Position numbers and translations under genes: made by a program. A stretch of 36,986 bases of DNA from a virus (lineage: Duplodnaviria; Heunggongvirae; Uroviricota; Caudoviricetes): IMG/VR virus record IMGVR_UViG_2671180460_000002. The stretch is one strand, 5' to 3'. This document shows, piece after piece, positions 14,893 through 26,331 of the stretch. Below the pieces are notes generated by a model. That model made no database searches. It saw only the letters and a program-made list of their open reading frames with translations, and was not told where the DNA came from. Within the stretch, counting starts at the first letter, position 1, and each line of letters opens with the position of its first letter.

Positions 14893-14938
14893 CCACAGCG
14901 GCCCGGTTTTCCGGGCCGTCTGATATTCGGGATTTGTA

Positions 14939-15679
14939 ATGCAAAAACAGATTATTGGTAACGCAACGTTGTATTGCGGTGATGTTCTTGATGTGCTGCC
15001 GGCGTTATCTGAACGTTTTGATGCCGTCATTACCGACCCGCCTTACAGCAGTGGTGGCACACACAAATCAGACCGCAGTATGGCCCCTTCGGACAAGTAT
15101 GTCGGTCACACCCACTATGCCGAGTTCAGCGGGGATAACCGCGACCAGCGCAGCTGGGCATACTGGAGCACCCTGTGGATGTCCGGGGCTGCCCGCCTTG
15201 TGCGCCCCGGTGGTTATTTCATGGTGTTCAGTGACTGGCGACAGCTTCCCACCATGACCGACGTTTTTCAGGCCGGTGGTGTGCTGTGGCGTGGTCTGGT
15301 TGTCTGGGATAAAACGCAGGCTTCCCGTGCGCCACACACTGGCTATTTCCGGCATCAGGCCGAGTATGTGGTCTGGGGCAGCAACGGAAAACTCGACAAA
15401 TGCCCGCACGGTGGCCCGTTCCCGGGTGTGATTACGCAGCGTGTTGTCCCGTCCGCAAAACTGCACATGATCGCAAAGCCGGTTCAGCTGATGGCCGAGC
15501 TGGTTAAACCGCTGGCACCGGATGCGCACGTTCTCGATCCGTTTATGGAAAGTGGCACCACCGCCATCCCTGTACTTGCCCGTGGCGGACGGTTTACCGG
15601 CATTGAAATGACTAACCAGTATTTTGATATCGCCTGCGCACGTATCGAAAAAGCGCAGGCAGAAGCAGCGCAGGTGTGA
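14939..15679 (+). CDS. DNA methyltransferase, beta-class amino-MTase (N6-adenine or N4-cytosine)
   Basis: Motif IV DPPY (AVITDPPYSSGG) near the N-terminus and motif I (LDPFMESGTT) near the C-terminus; this order defines the beta class. No restriction partner nearby. Confidence 0.85.
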   Translation: MQKQIIGNATLYCGDVLDVLPALSERFDAVITDPPYSSGGTHKSDRSMAPSDKYVGHTHYAEFSGDNRDQRSWAYWSTLWMSGAARLVRPGGYFMVFSDWRQLPTMTDVFQAGGVLWRGLVVWDKTQASRAPHTGYFRHQAEYVVWGSNGKLDKCPHGGPFPGVITQRVVPSAKLHMIAKPVQLMAELVKPLAPDAHVLDPFMESGTTAIPVLARGGRFTGIEMTNQYFDIACARIEKAQAEAAQV

Positions 15680-15680
15680 C

Positions 15681-21964: not shown

Positions 21965-22360
21965 ATGGATCGCAATACCCCCTACCGTGACGGCGAGCTG
22001 AACCCGGTGCCGGTTGCCGCTGCGACCGAAATTTTTGGCGGCCATATGGTGGCCGTTAACGCATCCGGTTATGCCGTTCCGGCCAGTGCCACGGCCTCAC
22101 AGATTACGCTGGGCGTGTCTGATGGCTGGGTGGATAACAGCACCGGCAGCGATGGCGACGCCACCGTTCTGGTGCGTTGCGGCAAAGCCTTTCTGATGGC
22201 GAACAGCACCTCAGACCCGGTCACGCAATCGCAGGTCGGCAAGGTGTGCTACGTGGAAGACAGCGTGACCGTGGCAAAAACCGACAACAGCAGCGCCCGC
22301 CCTGTCGCCGGGAAAGTAATCGGCATCGGTGACGATGGCGTCTGGGTTCATTTCAGTTAA
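21965..22360 (+). CDS. hypothetical head-region protein
   Basis: 131-aa Gly/Ser/Val-rich ORF between protease/scaffold and major head; AGGAG RBS. Confidence 0.4.
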   Translation: MDRNTPYRDGELNPVPVAAATEIFGGHMVAVNASGYAVPASATASQITLGVSDGWVDNSTGSDGDATVLVRCGKAFLMANSTSDPVTQSQVGKVCYVEDSVTVAKTDNSSARPVAGKVIGIGDDGVWVHFS

Positions 22361-22370
22361 GGAGCAAAAC

Positions 22371-23279
22371 GTGTTAGTCAACGTTAAAAACGTCAAACAG
22401 ATTTTTATCAATCTGAAGGCCACCTTCCAGAAAGCCTTCGACCAGTCGCCAACTGACTGGCAGAAGGTGGCAATGGAAGTGCCATCAAACGGCAAGGAAA
22501 ACGACTACAGCTGGTTAAGTCGTTTCCCGAAAATGCGCGAGTGGATTGGTGACAAGGTCGTTAAATCACTGGCGGCATTTAACTACACCATCCGTAACAA
22601 GGACTGGGAAGCCACGGTTGAAGTCGATCGTAACGACATCGAGGACGACCAGATTATGGGCTATGCCCTTCAGGCAAAAGGAGCCGGACAGTCGGCAGCA
22701 GAGCTACCGGCAGATATTGTGGCGTCCCTTATCAGTAACGGTTTTACCAATCTCTGTTATGACGGTCAGCCGTTCTTTGATACCGACCACCTGGTCGCCG
22801 GTAAATCGGTGTCCAATAAAGGCACCAAAAAACTTAAAGTTGGCTCGCTTGCCGAGGCGAAAGCCTCCTACGGTGCCGCCCGTACATCCATGCGCAGCCT
22901 GAAAGATGACGAAGGCGCATCCCTTAAAATTCGCCCGAATCTGCTGGTTGTGCCACCGGCACTGGAAGATGACGCGAACTACCTGATGACCGCCGAGAAG
23001 TTCCCGGACGGTACGCCGAACCCGTACCGCAATACCGCCGAAGTGCTGGTGATGGCGGAGCTGGCGTCGGATTCTGCGTGGTTCCTGTTTGACACCACCA
23101 AACCGGTGAAACCGCTGATTTATCAGCTGCGTAAAAAGCCTGTTTTTGTGGAGCAGACGGACTACAACAGCGACAACGTGTTCAAGCGTAAGAAGTTCCT
23201 GTTTGGTGCCGAAGCGCGCTGTAACGGTGGTTACGGCTTCTGGCAGATGGCATTTGGTTCTGATGGTACGACGGAGTAA
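22371..23279 (+). CDS. major head subunit (Mu T-like)
   Basis: GTG at 22371 with TAAGGAG 6 nt upstream; about 300 aa; position after protease/scaffold. Confidence 0.75.
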   Translation: MLVNVKNVKQIFINLKATFQKAFDQSPTDWQKVAMEVPSNGKENDYSWLSRFPKMREWIGDKVVKSLAAFNYTIRNKDWEATVEVDRNDIEDDQIMGYALQAKGAGQSAAELPADIVASLISNGFTNLCYDGQPFFDTDHLVAGKSVSNKGTKKLKVGSLAEAKASYGAARTSMRSLKDDEGASLKIRPNLLVVPPALEDDANYLMTAEKFPDGTPNPYRNTAEVLVMAELASDSAWFLFDTTKPVKPLIYQLRKKPVFVEQTDYNSDNVFKRKKFLFGAEARCNGGYGFWQMAFGSDGTTE

Positions 23280-23282
23280 TGC

Positions 23283-23624
23283 ATGGAAAAGGTGATTGAA
23301 ATTACCGCCCGCCGTGAGGGTTTTCGCCGCTGCGGCGTGGCGCACAGTGCAACCACGAAGGCATGGCCTGCGGATGCGTTCACCCCGGAACAGCTGGCGG
23401 TGCTGAAAGCTGACCCCATGCTGATTGTGGTGGAGCGCGATAAAGCGTCCGGCCAGAACGACGCGGCCCAAAGTGATGAACTGGCCGCACAGCTGGATGC
23501 CGAGCGTCAGAAAGTCAGCGAACTGACGGCGCAACTGGAAGAAGAACGCCAGAAAGTCAGTGAACTGACCGCACAGCTGAACGCCGCACAGAAAACACAA
23601 AAAGCGAACAAAAAGGAGAAGTAA
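23283..23624 (+). CDS. hypothetical protein with tandem 14-aa repeats
   Basis: GGAG RBS; contains RQKVSELTAQLEEE and RQKVSELTAQLNAA, encoded by a 42-bp tandem repeat at 23505-23588. Confidence 0.45.
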   Translation: MEKVIEITARREGFRRCGVAHSATTKAWPADAFTPEQLAVLKADPMLIVVERDKASGQNDAAQSDELAAQLDAERQKVSELTAQLEEERQKVSELTAQLNAAQKTQKANKKEK

Positions 23625-23627
23625 CCC

Positions 23628-24059
23628 ATGTCTTACGCCACACCGGAACAGTTCATCAGGGCATTCAGTGAACGCGAGGCACGCACACTGACGGATGAAG
23701 ACATGACGGGATTCATCGACGAAGAAAAGCTGGCCTCCGCGCTTGCACGTGCCAGTGCCCAGATTGATGGCTATCTGGTGGGGCGTTACCGGACCCCGTG
23801 GCCTGACAGCCCGGGGATTCTGGTGGGTTACTGCTGCGATATCGCCCGTTACCACCTGGCGACCGATTACCGTATCTGCTCAGAAGAAATTCAGATGCGC
23901 TACCGGGACGCCATCCGCTTTCTGGAGAAAGTCGCGGCAGGACAAATCAACCTCGGGCGGGATACGTCCGGCAGCGTGATCCAGTCATCGTCACAGGTGC
24001 GTATCCGCTCTGGCTCCCGTCAGTTCGGGCGTGAGTCCACGCGGGGAGGTGCATTCTGA
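23628..24059 (+). CDS. Mu gp36-like protein (DUF1320-type)
   Basis: 143 aa after the major head, AGGAG RBS; synteny with Mu gp36. Confidence 0.5.
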   Translation: MSYATPEQFIRAFSEREARTLTDEDMTGFIDEEKLASALARASAQIDGYLVGRYRTPWPDSPGILVGYCCDIARYHLATDYRICSEEIQMRYRDAIRFLEKVAAGQINLGRDTSGSVIQSSSQVRIRSGSRQFGRESTRGGAF

Positions 24060-24112
24060 TTACTGAAATTGAACGGGCGCTGGTTGAGCGTCTGCGCTGT
24101 GGTCTGGGGCAT

Positions 24113-24694
24113 ATGGTGCAGGATGTCCGCACCTATGCCGGTGAACTGGATGAAGACCCGGGCCGGATTGTTCGCAGCCTTCCGGCAGCCTGGGTGACGT
24201 TCGGCGGCATCGTGAAAACCGAACGCTATTCCACGTCACGCCGGAAATACATTACCACCGGACGCTTTGTGGTTGTGGTGGGTGATTACAACACCCGCAG
24301 CGAACAGAGCGCCAGACAGGGAGGCACCGTCCGGGATGAAGTCGGGACAAACCAGATGGTTGAATCCGTCCGTCGCCTGCTGACCGGTCAGGATTTGGGG
24401 CTGGAGATTGATTATTTCGAACCCGGGCGGGTCAGGATGCTGTTTAACACCGGCGTGGCAGAGCGGGCAATGTCCGTGTTTGCCTGTGAGTTCGATACCC
24501 GCTGGGTGGAGCACGCGCTGGAGAACGGCAAATGGCCGGAGCGTGGCGCAGAAGCGGACCGCCTCTTCAACCGCTACCACGGCAGGCTGTCAGACCCGGA
24601 TCCGGATTTACTGCGAATTGGTACGCAATACGGCGCAGATATCTGTGGTCTGGATGAATTAAGAGAGCAACAGCATGAACAAAATGAAGGTTAA
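24113..24694 (+). CDS. Mu gp37-like protein (DUF1834-type); true start probably upstream at a non-AUG codon
   Basis: First ATG is at 24113, but the frame is open upstream and reads a protein-like ITEIERALVERLRCGLGH from ATT 24059 or CTG 24056, preceded by GGGGAGG at 24043-24049. Confidence 0.5.
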   Translation: MVQDVRTYAGELDEDPGRIVRSLPAAWVTFGGIVKTERYSTSRRKYITTGRFVVVVGDYNTRSEQSARQGGTVRDEVGTNQMVESVRRLLTGQDLGLEIDYFEPGRVRMLFNTGVAERAMSVFACEFDTRWVEHALENGKWPERGAEADRLFNRYHGRLSDPDPDLLRIGTQYGADICGLDELREQQHEQNEG

Positions 24695-24917
24695 GGCGGC
24701 TCCCGGGGTGAAGTTCCCGATGGAGGATAACGCCCGGAAATACATCACCACGGAAGCGGTGACCGTTGAGAACACCGCTTATTACCGGCGCGCCGTTCAG
24801 GACGGTGACCTGATTCTGGTGAAGGATGAGCCTGAAACCACCGTGACGGCTGAACAGGACGCCGTGCAGGTAAAAGCGAAGGCGAAGAGAGAGAAACAGG
24901 TGGATTCCGATGAGTGA
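24675..24917 (+). CDS. hypothetical small protein (Mu gp38-like position)
   Basis: 80-aa ORF directly upstream of the sheath gene. Confidence 0.4.
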   Translation: MNKMKVKAAPGVKFPMEDNARKYITTEAVTVENTAYYRRAVQDGDLILVKDEPETTVTAEQDAVQVKAKAKREKQVDSDE

Positions 24918-26331
24918 AATTCAGTTTGACACCATTTCGGGCGGCATCCGTAAGCCCGGTGTGCATTTTGAGTTCAATACCCGGCTGGCCGTTAACACGC
25001 TGCCGGGTAATGAACAGCGTGTTCTGGTGATTGGCCCGATGCTGTCAGGCGGCACCGCCACGCCCCTGAATGCCGTTTCCGTGTATTCCGAAGACGAAGC
25101 GGATGTGTATTTCGGGGCCGGTTCGCTGGCAGCTGCAATGGCGCGCGCGGCCATTAATGCCAACAGCTATCTGCAACTGGATGTTATCGGTATTGCAGAC
25201 AGTGGCGCAGGAAAGGCAGCAACCGGCGCGGTTACCGTCAGTGGTACAGCAATCAGCAGCGGCACACTGTCGGTATGGGTTGCCGGTGAGCAGGTCACGG
25301 TGGATGTGGAAACTGGTGATGAACCGTCGAAAATCATTCCGGCACTGGTGGAAGCAATGGCGCAGACGCCCTCGCTTCTGGTGACGGGGGAATACAAATC
25401 AGAAACCTCTCAGCTGACGGTGACCACCCGGACCAAAGGTGCCTGGGGGAATGATATCACCCTGTCAGCGTCCACCACGGCAGGTGGTCTGACCGTGAGC
25501 GCCACGCCGATGGCGAACGGCGAAATGGACCCGGATATTCAGCCCGCACTGGATGCGGTCTTTGCCGCCGGTCACAACATTCTGATTTGTCCGTTCAGTA
25601 CCACGCCAGCCCTTGCCGCCCTGAAGCAGCATCTGGAGAAAACCGGGAACGCGATGGAACAGCGCGGCGCGATTGGCTGTGCAGGCTGGACGGGCAGTCT
25701 CGGAAACGGGATCACCCTGGCAGCCGGTGTGAACAGTGGGCGCGTGTCCGTCCCCTGGTATCGCGGCTCCGTGAAGCTGCCAGCGGTGCTGGCTGCCATC
25801 TACGGCGCTGTGATGGCGGGCGAGGAAGACCCGGCGCGTCCGCTGAACTCGCTGGCGCTGTCCGGGCTGGATGTGGTCGCCATGTCACAGCGTGAAAGCC
25901 GTAACGAGCAGGAAAACGCCCTGCATAACGGCCTCACTCCGGTTGAGGTTGGTCCGGGTAACACGGTGCAGATTGTGCGTGCGGTCAGTACGTACACGGT
26001 TAACGCACAGGGCGTGACTGACGTCTCGTTACTGGATATCACGTCCATCAGAACGCTGGACTACACCCGCAAGGCGTGCCGCGAACGCATCAGCCTTCGC
26101 TTCCCGCGCGAAAAACTCAGCACCCGCACTATCGCAAAAGTGGAAAGCGAACTGTATGACGTGCTGATCAAGCTGGAGGAAGCGGAAATTCTGGAGAACG
26201 TGGAAGCGAACAAGGCAAAGCTGCGCGTTCAGCGAAACGGGAAAGATGCAAACCGTCTCGACTGCGTGGTTCCGGCGGATGTGGTTAACGGCCTGCATGT
26301 GTTTGCCGGTCGCATCGACATGATTTTGTAA
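24910..26331 (+). CDS. tail sheath protein (Mu L-like)
   Basis: 473 aa, AGGTGG RBS, followed by the tube gene; typical myovirus sheath size and position. Confidence 0.9.
   Translation: MSEIQFDTISGGIRKPGVHFEFNTRLAVNTLPGNEQRVLVIGPMLSGGTATPLNAVSVYSEDEADVYFGAGSLAAAMARAAINANSYLQLDVIGIADSGAGKAATGAVTVSGTAISSGTLSVWVAGEQVTVDVETGDEPSKIIPALVEAMAQTPSLLVTGEYKSETSQLTVTTRTKGAWGNDITLSASTTAGGLTVSATPMANGEMDPDIQPALDAVFAAGHNILICPFSTTPALAALKQHLEKTGNAMEQRGAIGCAGWTGSLGNGITLAAGVNSGRVSVPWYRGSVKLPAVLAAIYGAVMAGEEDPARPLNSLALSGLDVVAMSQRESRNEQENALHNGLTPVEVGPGNTVQIVRAVSTYTVNAQGVTDVSLLDITSIRTLDYTRKACRERISLRFPREKLSTRTIAKVESELYDVLIKLEEAEILENVEANKAKLRVQRNGKDANRLDCVVPADVVNGLHVFAGRIDMIL

What the first reader, a model, noticed from the sequence alone, without database searches (positions are those of the whole stretch)
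24040..24120. gp37-like gene probably starts at a non-AUG codon 54 nt upstream of its first ATG
Upstream of the first ATG (24113) the frame is open and encodes a plausible N-terminus ITEIERALVERLRCGLGH. A strong GGGGAGG sits at 24043-24049, correctly spaced for CTG 24056 or ATT 24059, and overlaps the stop of the preceding gene (translational coupling). A sequencing error removing an ATG is the alternative.
Basis: seen in the sequence. Interest (0 to 1): 0.45.

Follow-up and report, generated by a model that had tools for sequence, protein, structure and literature searches.

The report
Tail terminator gene starts at CTG
The tail-terminator gene of this Mu-like E. coli prophage almost certainly begins at a rare CTG codon that overlaps the stop of the gene before it, not at its first ATG. 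It is a tidy but ordinary case of a non-standard start codon, and public annotation handles it inconsistently.

Summary
The gp37 frame is open from 24035. It has no ATG, GTG or TTG before ATG 24113. GGGGAGG lies at 24043-24049, and the gp36 stop (TGA 24057-24059) overlaps an in-frame CTG at 24056.

The 19 upstream codons are real coding sequence:
- They align to positions 2-20 of Pfam PF08873 and add 24 bits to the score.
- They contain four residues invariant across the family (E6, L13, G16, G18).
- They form the confident first helix of a tail-terminator fold, whose best structural match is phage Mu gp37.

Every homologue examined starts at or within a few codons of the position of CTG 24056. 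The closest relatives read ...GGGGAGGTGCATT-TTGA with a TTG start. The Escherichia clade differs there by one T-to-C change, which is silent in gp36 (Phe TTT to TTC).

This is not a sequencing error. All 54 complete E. coli genomes that carry the junction have CTGA, as do 21 IMG/VR contigs. The prophage sits at different chromosomal sites in different strains, so the lineage was still mobile after the change.

RefSeq already calls the CTG start in 31 of the 54 genomes and ATG 24113 in the other 23. The likely mechanism, inferred and not shown, is initiation or reinitiation at CUG, helped by a very strong Shine-Dalgarno site and the 4-nt stop/start overlap. Interest is low to moderate.

The parts
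23628..24059 (+). gp36-like gene (head-tail adaptor, PF07030). Its last codons, ...R G G A F*, encode the SD for gp37. Its stop is TGA 24057-24059.
   Evidence: ORF. Pfam PF07030 at 114.5 bits. PHROG 195 'head-tail adaptor'.
24043..24051 (+). Shine-Dalgarno site GGGGAGGUG inside the 3' end of gp36. The GGAGG core ends 6 nt before CTG 24056.
   Evidence: Sequence. Duplex with the 16S 3' tail is -12.3 kcal/mol, the strongest among neighbouring late genes and in the top 0.6% of the window. Invariant in the CTG clade.
24056..24058 (+). Proposed CTG (CUG) start codon of gp37, overlapping the gp36 stop as CTGA.
   Evidence: Homologous to TTG in the closest relatives and to ATG in SuMu and Mannheimia phage, all with the same 4-nt overlap. 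Pfam profile position 2 aligns to the next codon. RefSeq uses it as the start in 31 of 54 genomes.
24056..24694 (+). Full gp37-like tail terminator gene, 212 codons plus stop.
   Evidence: PF08873 at 162.7 bits over profile 2-148. AlphaFold2 model with pLDDT 84.7. Foldseek best matches are the Mu tail terminator 9khy_1 and 9lj8_A.
24059..24115 (+). Codons 2-20, which encode N-terminal helix alpha-1. This is the 'extension' that is lost if the gene is called from ATG 24113.
   Evidence: Helix 2-20 with mean pLDDT about 95-96. Family-invariant E6, L13, G16 and G18 lie in it. Within the CTG clade it shows 4 synonymous-only and 2 non-synonymous variable codons, with no indel or stop.
24113..24115 (+). 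First ATG, which is internal Met20, a conserved hydrophobic position of the family. Gene callers that lack CTG in their start set use it as the start.
   Evidence: Homologues have M, or L in Klebsiella phage ST405-OXA48phi1.1, at this position inside GLGxM. The SD is weak (-4.7 kcal/mol) with a 2-3 nt spacer. RefSeq calls this start in 23 of 54 genomes.
24675..24917 (+). Downstream DUF2635 gene, which overlaps the 3' end of gp37. Included as context for the tightly packed late operon.
   Evidence: ORF. PF10948. PHROG 208 aligned from residue 1.

Best explanation
The gp37-like gene encodes the tail terminator of a Mu-like transposable prophage. The terminator is a hexameric cap on the tail tube and sheath, six copies per virion. 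It is translated from CUG 24056, giving a 212-residue protein that begins (f)Met-Ile-Thr-Glu-Ile-Glu.

The ancestral start was UUG, embedded in UUUUGA: Phe codon, UGA stop of gp36, and UUG start of gp37. In the Escherichia clade a single T-to-C transition turned UUG into CUG. The change is silent in gp36 (TTT to TTC).

Initiator tRNA still reads CUG through a first-position mismatch, as it does for UUG. Two features probably make that initiation sufficient: an unusually strong SD (GGGGAGGUG) at optimal spacing, and the 4-nt stop/start overlap, which delivers terminating ribosomes directly onto the site (termination-reinitiation or de novo initiation on unfolded mRNA). A low yield is tolerable because only six copies are needed per virion.

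Shown here: the extension is homologous, conserved coding sequence; CTG occupies the homologous start position; the junction is fixed in a mobile phage lineage. Inferred: that CUG, rather than the adjacent AUU, is the codon used; that coupling contributes; and that low expression is tolerated.
For: 1. Pfam PF08873 aligns from profile position 2 at the codon after CTG. The extension adds 23.9 bits.
2. Homologues start at the equivalent codon. Examples are TTGA in Klebsiella phage ST405-OXA48phi1.1 and ATGA in SuMu and Mannheimia phage.
3. In the census of distinct junctions, CTG accounts for 11, TTG 53, ATG 40 and GTG 9. Every locus at 90% or more protein identity to the window has CTGA and no canonical start upstream of conserved E6.
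4. The closest TTG relatives are Citrobacter braakii P0003 (89% identity) and P0002 (87%). Both share the identical context gcggggaggtgcattTTGA. Escherichia P0005 (86%) has CTGA.
5. All 54 complete E. coli genomes with the junction fall into three haplotypes that all carry CTGA: 24 + 23 + 7.
6. The prophage is inserted in eutC, in the melR-melA spacer, and in fliH in three different strains, with intact gene sets. The lineage therefore made infectious, transposing phage after CTG arose.
7. Residues 2-20 form helix alpha-1 at pLDDT about 95 in a tail-terminator fold. Mu gp37, PDB 9khy 'Probable tail terminator protein', aligns from residue 1.
8. Within the CTG clade the extension shows mostly third-position synonymous change (4 synonymous, 2 non-synonymous) and no frame disruption.
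9. The SD scores -12.3 kcal/mol before CTG and -4.7 kcal/mol, badly spaced, before ATG 24113.
10. CUG supports initiation in E. coli at about 1-2% of AUG (bioRxiv 10.1101/063800). Four-nt overlaps with an intragenic SD commonly give termination-reinitiation coupling in E. coli (PMC6728339; review PMC12548453).
Against: - There is no direct evidence of initiation: no N-terminal peptide, no start-site ribosome profiling and no reporter data.
- In reporter assays CUG is 10- to 100-fold weaker than UUG, so the output might be very low.
- ATT 24059 (9-nt spacer) is an equally near-cognate codon and cannot be excluded by sequence. It would give a protein one residue shorter.
- The synonymous-to-non-synonymous signal in the extension rests on only six variable codons (binomial p about 0.04 against a 1:3 neutral expectation) and ignores recombination.
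- No isolated phage of this lineage is in the phage collection. 'Active' is inferred from the diversity of insertion sites.
Confidence: 0.8

Rival explanations
1. Translation starts at AUU 24059, or less likely AUU 24053, not at CUG 24056. The same SD is used and the protein is one residue shorter (MTEIE...) or one longer.
For: AUU and CUG fall in the same efficiency class in E. coli, 1-2% of AUG. ATT 24059 lies 9 nt after the GGAGG core, still within the workable range. Codon 2 (ATT) is invariant in the clade.
Against: Homologues place their canonical start exactly at the CTG position and keep Ile as residue 2. ATT 24053 is only 3 nt from the SD core, and pairing extends to within 1 nt of it. 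CTG has the better spacing.
Confidence: 0.1
2. In this clade the T-to-C change abolished the authentic start. The protein is now made only from ATG 24113 as a 193-residue terminator lacking helix alpha-1. That protein is either still functional or defective, in which case the prophages would be tail-defective.
For: ATG 24113 is the first canonical start codon. 23 of 54 RefSeq annotations and several database proteins (P0054, P0094, P0030) use it. A weak GGGG lies just upstream.
Against: - The truncated form lacks four family-invariant residues and the whole of a confidently predicted helix.
- The SD before 24113 is weak and only 2-3 nt away.
- The 57-nt extension has acquired no stop or indel, and mostly synonymous changes, across 21 alleles that diverge by up to about 14%.
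- Different insertion sites argue that the lineage still makes infectious particles.
- Met20 is a conserved internal residue in relatives that have an upstream TTG or ATG start.
Confidence: 0.07
3. The junction is a sequencing or assembly error that destroyed an ATG or TTG start in this one record.
For: None beyond the absence of a canonical start codon.
Against: An identical CTGA junction occurs in 54 independently sequenced complete E. coli genomes, in 21 IMG/VR contigs and in two further Escherichia assemblies.
Confidence: 0.005
4. The extension is expressed as a gp36-gp37 fusion by a programmed -1 ribosomal frameshift at the end of gp36, stimulated by the SD.
For: The gp37 frame is -1 relative to gp36. 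A strong SD lies just upstream of the stop, as at the prfB and dnaX frameshift sites. This is a recollection of those systems, not a test.
Against: - There is no X XXY YYZ slippery heptamer. Read directly from the sequence, the P-site codon UUC would have to re-pair on AUU.
- Relatives use other junction geometries (TGATG, non-overlapping ATG) that do not conserve any shift site.
- Fusing a head-side adaptor to the tail terminator makes little assembly sense, because Mu heads and tails assemble separately (established knowledge).
- Mu gp37 in PDB 9khy is deposited as a separate 182-residue chain.
Confidence: 0.02

Closest known systems
Phage Mu gp37 (gene K region; PDB 9khy and 9lj8, 'Probable tail terminator protein'), Pfam PF08873 / DUF1834
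   Same: Same Pfam family (162.7 bits). Same position in the late operon: gp36, gp37, DUF2635, sheath. Same tail-terminator fold (Foldseek E 4.8e-8). The N-termini align residue 1 to residue 1: MLEETEAALLARVR against (M)ITEIERALVERLR.
   Different: Only about 16-22% sequence identity. Mu uses an ATG start with a 1-nt TGATG overlap, whereas the window uses CTG in a 4-nt CTGA overlap. The window protein has a C-terminal tail about 30 residues longer.
TTG-start gp37 genes of the closest relatives (Citrobacter braakii P0003, Klebsiella phage ST405-OXA48phi1.1, and many enterobacterial Mu-like prophages)
   Same: Identical architecture and, in C. braakii, an identical 25-nt upstream context: GGGGAGGTGCATT-NTGA. 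The stop/start overlap and the SD inside gp36 are the same.
   Different: The first base of the start codon is T in the relatives and C here. In reporter assays this moves the codon from the 'canonical' class (10-100% of AUG) to the 'near-cognate' class (about 1-2%).
Documented non-canonical bacterial start codons (AUU of infC and pcnB, named from memory; near-cognate CUG, AUU, AUC and AUA quantified by Hecht et al., bioRxiv 10.1101/063800)
   Same: A near-cognate codon read by initiator tRNA, with dependence on a good SD.
   Different: For infC the weak codon is a regulatory device (IF3 autoregulation). Nothing here shows regulation. The change may simply be a tolerated, gp36-silent substitution in a gene needed at low copy.
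Translational coupling by termination-reinitiation at 4-nt overlaps (ATGA), Huber et al. 2019, PMC6728339
   Same: A 4-nt stop/start overlap with a strong intragenic SD in a co-directional pair that encodes interacting structural proteins.
   Different: The overlap is CTGA, not ATGA, GTGA or TTGA. Whether reinitiating ribosomes accept CUG better than de novo initiation complexes do is not known.

Membership tests
Pfam PF08873 (Phage_Mu_Gp37 / DUF1834), tail terminator of Mu-like phages | Profile HMM score above the gathering threshold | tested here: met
   162.7 bits against a cut-off of 25, covering profile 2-148 of 149.
Pfam PF08873 (Phage_Mu_Gp37 / DUF1834), tail terminator of Mu-like phages | N-terminal helix with conserved E6, L13, G16 and G18 present in the product | tested here: met
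   Met only if translation starts at or next to CTG 24056. These columns are invariant in 96 sequences. Helix 2-20 has pLDDT about 95.
Pfam PF08873 (Phage_Mu_Gp37 / DUF1834), tail terminator of Mu-like phages | Tail-terminator fold (lambda gpU / Mu gp37 type) | tested here: met
   Foldseek hits: 9khy_1 at E 4.8e-8 (TM 0.51/0.60) and 9lj8_A. Also T5 p142, pyocin R2 collar, lambda gpU and 2gjv. 9khy_1 is Mu gp37.
Pfam PF08873 (Phage_Mu_Gp37 / DUF1834), tail terminator of Mu-like phages | Synteny: between gp36 (PF07030) and DUF2635 plus tail sheath | tested here: met
Pfam PF08873 (Phage_Mu_Gp37 / DUF1834), tail terminator of Mu-like phages | Forms a hexameric ring that caps the tube and sheath in the virion | not testable with these tools
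   Inferred from Mu structures 9khy and 9lj8, which have 12 chains across 2 entries.
Genes with a non-canonical (CUG) initiation codon | No ATG, GTG or TTG in frame upstream of conserved N-terminal sequence | tested here: met
   The same holds in all 25 other loci at 90% identity or more.
Genes with a non-canonical (CUG) initiation codon | The candidate codon occupies the position of canonical start codons in homologues | tested here: met
   TTG or ATG at the same aligned codon in close relatives.
Genes with a non-canonical (CUG) initiation codon | SD at functional spacing | tested here: met
   GGGGAGGUG at -12.3 kcal/mol, with the core ending 6 nt before CTG.
Genes with a non-canonical (CUG) initiation codon | Not a sequencing artefact or pseudogene: fixed in many independent genomes, with the frame maintained | tested here: met
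   54 of 54 E. coli genomes. 21 alleles with an intact frame. Different insertion sites.
Genes with a non-canonical (CUG) initiation codon | Direct demonstration of initiation at that codon (N-terminal peptide, start-site profiling or mutagenesis) | not testable with these tools
   No experimental data are available. A literature search found no report on this gene.
Translational coupling by termination-reinitiation at a 4-nt overlap | Stop of the upstream gene overlaps the start of the downstream gene (NUGA), with an SD inside the upstream gene | tested here: met
   CTGA at 24056-24059, SD at 24043-24051.
Translational coupling by termination-reinitiation at a 4-nt overlap | Downstream translation depends on upstream translation | not testable with these tools
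   Needs a premature-stop reporter, as in PMC6728339.
Programmed -1 frameshift fusion | Slippery heptamer X XXY YYZ at the frame junction, conserved in homologues | tested here: not met
   The sequence GCA UUC UGA has no such site. Junction geometry varies among homologues.

The most novel reading that the evidence does not exclude
Because the start sits inside a stop/start overlap directly behind a very strong SD, gp37 may be made mainly by ribosomes that terminate on gp36 and reinitiate in place. In that mode the identity of the first base of NUG would matter little. The UUG-to-CUG change would then be nearly neutral and could fix in a successful, mobile phage lineage. That would make this locus a natural, population-validated example of efficient reinitiation on CUG. 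It would also imply that near-cognate starts are systematically under-called at 4-nt overlaps. The census trend fits a trade-off between codon strength and SD strength: mean SD energy is -12.3 kcal/mol for CTG, -10.4 for TTG, -6.8 for ATG and -5.6 for GTG junctions.
Probability: 0.35. Interest if true: 0.45.

Novelty: new member of a known kind. Interest (0 to 1): 0.27.

Why it matters
In practice this is an annotation problem. Identical DNA is annotated with two different gp37 proteins in RefSeq: 212-217 residues from CTG, or 193-198 residues from ATG. This happens even for two assemblies of the same strain, E2348/69. Gene callers that do not allow CTG cut off a conserved helix of the tail terminator, which corrupts protein families, structure predictions and pangenome clustering.

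Biologically, the case shows step by step how a start codon can decay from UUG to CUG. The substitution is silent in the overlapping upstream gene, and the phage lineage did not lose function. The lineage therefore offers a convenient natural substrate for testing whether termination-reinitiation relaxes start-codon selection. It does not reveal a new mechanism.

Tried and rejected
- **Near-identical phage records:** megablast of the locus against isolated phage genomes found nothing. No cultured phage of this lineage is available, so activity had to be inferred from insertion sites.
- **PDB sequence search:** a profile search of the PDB with the family alignment gave only a chance hit to a pyrophosphohydrolase (E 0.29). 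The fold had to be identified through an AlphaFold2 model and Foldseek.
- **Direct BLASTP to Mu gp37:** the match is insignificant (E 1.6). It is nevertheless co-linear from residue 1 and is used only as supporting alignment.
- **Sequencing error:** rejected on population data.
- **Frameshift fusions:** both types were considered from the sequence and rejected. A prfB-like +1 shift would enter the wrong frame. A -1 shift has no slippery site.
- **Literature search:** a search for CUG starts in E. coli phages returned nothing specific to this gene.

Full report
**What is in the sequence**

The window holds the late region of a Mu-like transposable prophage. In order, the genes are:
- a gpT-type major head gene, 22329-23279;
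- a FluMu_N-domain gene, 23283-23624;
- a gp36-like gene (PF07030), 23628-24059;
- the gp37-like gene (PF08873), ending at 24694;
- a DUF2635 gene, 24675-24917;
- the tail sheath gene, 24910-26331.

In the gp37 frame a TGA lies at 24032-24034. The frame is then open and reads VHAGRCILITEIERALVERLRCGLGH before the first ATG at 24113. There is no ATG, GTG or TTG in between.

GGGGAGG lies at 24043-24049. The gp36 stop is TGA 24057-24059. The in-frame near-cognate codons are ATT 24053, CTG 24056 and ATT 24059.

**Is the upstream stretch coding?**

Yes, on four independent grounds.

1. Profile match. Pfam PF08873 matches the protein read from CTG 24056 over profile positions 2-148 at 162.7 bits. 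The protein read from ATG 24113 matches only positions 20-148 at 138.8 bits. The 19 extra residues contribute about 24 bits.
2. Homologue N-termini. Of 107 database homologues, about 95 begin M-I-T-x-I-E-x-A-L-x-x-R-L-x-x-G-L-G-x-M. In a 96-sequence alignment, E6, L13, G16 and G18 are invariant, and all four lie in the extension.
3. Structure. An AlphaFold2 model (mean pLDDT 84.7) places residues 2-20 in the first helix at pLDDT about 95. The model's best PDB matches are 9khy_1 and 9lj8_A, followed by other tail terminators: T5 p142, the R2 pyocin collar, lambda gpU and 2gjv. 9khy_1 is phage Mu gp37, deposited as 'Probable tail terminator protein'. Mu gp37 aligns with the extended protein from residue 1: MLEETEAALLARVR against MITEIERALVERLR.
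4. Variation within the clade. Among 21 distinct alleles that share the CTG junction, the 19 codons show four codons with only synonymous third-position variation and two with amino-acid changes. The changes are E/D at codon 4 and H/K/E at codon 19, which is a variable column in the family. No stop or indel occurs. The rest of the Pfam domain shows 21 synonymous and 14 non-synonymous variable codons, a similar pattern. The numbers are small, with binomial p about 0.04 against a neutral 1:3 expectation, but they point the same way.

**Which codon?**

I fetched 146 loci: 57 from species-representative genomes, 80 from IMG/VR, and annotated phage and E. coli records. In each I located the codon aligned with residue 1.

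- Every locus whose protein is at least 90% identical to the window's (25 loci plus the window) reads ...GGGGAGGTGCATT-CTGA-TTAC... and has no canonical start upstream of conserved E6.
- L086 (85% identity) and essentially all relatives at 55-76% identity read TTT-TGA. That is a TTG start in a 4-nt overlap with the gp36 stop.
- More distant relatives use TGATG, GTGA or ATGA.
- Annotated phages agree: Klebsiella phage ST405-OXA48phi1.1 has TTGA, and Haemophilus phage SuMu and Mannheimia phage 3927AP2 have ATGA. In each, the deposited gp37 CDS overlaps gp36 by four bases.

The closest TTG relatives are Citrobacter braakii P0003 (89% identity) and P0002 (87%). Both share the identical 25-nt context gcggggaggtgcattTTGA. 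An Escherichia allele at 86% identity (P0005) already has CTGA.

The event is therefore a single T-to-C transition at the first base of a TTG start. It is synonymous in gp36 (Phe TTT to TTC). CTG 24056, 57 nt upstream of the ATG, is the homologous start.

**Not an error, and not a dead prophage**

The 40-nt junction occurs in 54 of 5,426 complete E. coli genomes, plus one partial copy. Three haplotypes account for all 54: the window's in 24 genomes, an A24067C variant in 23 and a G24041A variant in 7. All three carry CTGA.

The prophage interrupts eutC in E2348/69. It lies between melR and melA in strain tcmA_3. It interrupts fliH in OkiPb01701. In each case the complement of Mu-type genes is full and intact. 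The window's own left flank differs again.

All these copies inherit CTG, and Mu-like phages reach new sites only by infection and transposition. The lineage must therefore have produced functional virions after the change. This is an inference, but a strong one.

**Ribosome-binding context**

GGGGAGGUG pairs with the 16S rRNA 3' tail at -12.3 kcal/mol. Comparable values are:

| Site | SD energy (kcal/mol) |
|---|---|
| gp37, before CTG 24056 | -12.3 |
| gp36 start | -8.7 |
| Sheath start | -5.9 |
| Before ATG 24113 (2-3 nt spacer) | -4.7 |

Only 0.6% of sampled window positions reach -11.

Across non-redundant junctions, mean SD energy tracks codon weakness: CTG -12.3, TTG -10.4, ATG -6.8 and GTG -5.6. 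This trend is not corrected for phylogeny. The strong SD is ancestral, since the TTG relatives share it, so it is not a compensation that arose after the CTG change.

**Mechanism**

Established measurements put CUG, with AUU, AUC and AUA, at about 1-2% of AUG in E. coli (0.02-3% depending on the reporter). GUG and UUG give 10-100% (Hecht et al., bioRxiv 10.1101/063800).

Four-nt overlaps preceded by an intragenic SD usually show tight translational coupling in E. coli, and removing the SD usually lowers reinitiation (PMC6728339). Whether this works by 30S or 70S scanning or by mRNA unfolding remains debated (PMC12548453).

My best account is that initiator tRNA reads CUG 24056 on ribosomes held by the strong SD. 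A substantial share of those ribosomes have probably just terminated at UGA 24057-24059. The product is needed at only six copies per virion, on the evidence of the Mu hexamer in 9khy and 9lj8. A weak start, already UUG in the ancestors, is therefore tolerable.

The following steps are not shown:
- use of CUG rather than AUU 24059;
- any contribution of coupling;
- the actual expression level.

**Rivals**

- AUU 24059 as the start: probability about 0.10.
- Exclusive use of ATG 24113, giving a helix-less 193-residue protein: about 0.07. It is disfavoured by conservation, the poor SD, the maintained frame and the mobility of the lineage.
- A -1 frameshift fusion: about 0.02. There is no slippery site, the junction geometry varies among homologues, and Mu gp37 is a separate chain.
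- Sequencing error: below 0.01.

**Comparison with what is known, and novelty**

The protein is a regular member of PF08873, the Mu gp37 tail-terminator family. The start-codon feature belongs to the known class of near-cognate bacterial starts.

It is already partly captured in public data. RefSeq's pipeline calls the CDS from CTG in 31 of the 54 genomes. I verified that the E2348/69 CDS at NC_011601.1 2738469 begins with CTG. Examples are WP_071791946.1, WP_160450639.1 and WP_077781769.1. In the other 23 genomes it calls the CDS from ATG 24113 (for example WP_000249531.1). Two assemblies of E2348/69 disagree with each other. The 212-residue form heads a cluster of 723 member sequences.

I found no paper on this gene. 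I therefore file it as a new member of a known kind, of modest interest. Its value lies in correcting annotation and in offering a clean natural substrate for testing start-codon stringency during reinitiation.

Noticed in passing
window 24675-24917: The start of the next gene (DUF2635) is also called inconsistently. RefSeq uses an ATG equivalent to window 24708, giving 69 residues. The longest ORF starts at ATG 24675, giving 80 residues that overlap gp37 by 20 nt. PHROG 208 aligns from residue 1 of that longer form. Other callers give forms of 77-86 residues in relatives.
   Followed up: partly
window 24056-24694; L149 3455-4003 (Mu Mup37): PHROG 490 labels this family 'portal protein', as do the RefSeq records of Mu, SuMu and Mannheimia phage. 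The solved Mu structure deposits gp37 as the tail terminator, and the fold search agrees. The 'portal' label is a propagated misannotation.
   Followed up: yes
window about 103 to beyond 36644; L146, L147, L148: The same prophage type sits in eutC (E2348/69), between melR and melA (tcmA_3) and in fliH (OkiPb01701). Homology of the window to these prophages begins at about position 103-107, so the first 100 nt or so are a different host flank. I did not identify what that flank is.
   Followed up: partly
window about 14930-15680: This block is present in the window and in E2348/69, where it is annotated as a DNA methyltransferase between the DUF1804 gene and terL. It is absent from the tcmA_3 and OkiPb01701 prophages. 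This is one of several mosaic blocks; early-region identity is only 88-96% with gaps.
   Followed up: no
L009-L145 junctions (gp36/gp37 boundary in relatives): Across distinct junctions, TTG is the commonest gp37 start (53, against 40 ATG, 9 GTG and 11 CTG). SD strength rises as codon strength falls. This is not corrected for shared ancestry.
   Followed up: partly
L147 36936-39058 (tcmA_3) compared with L146 37692-39934: The tail-fibre end of the prophage carries oppositely oriented tail-fibre and assembly genes. In one genome it also carries fragments annotated as 'integrase'. This looks like a Mu G-segment-type invertible region caught in different orientations.
   Followed up: no
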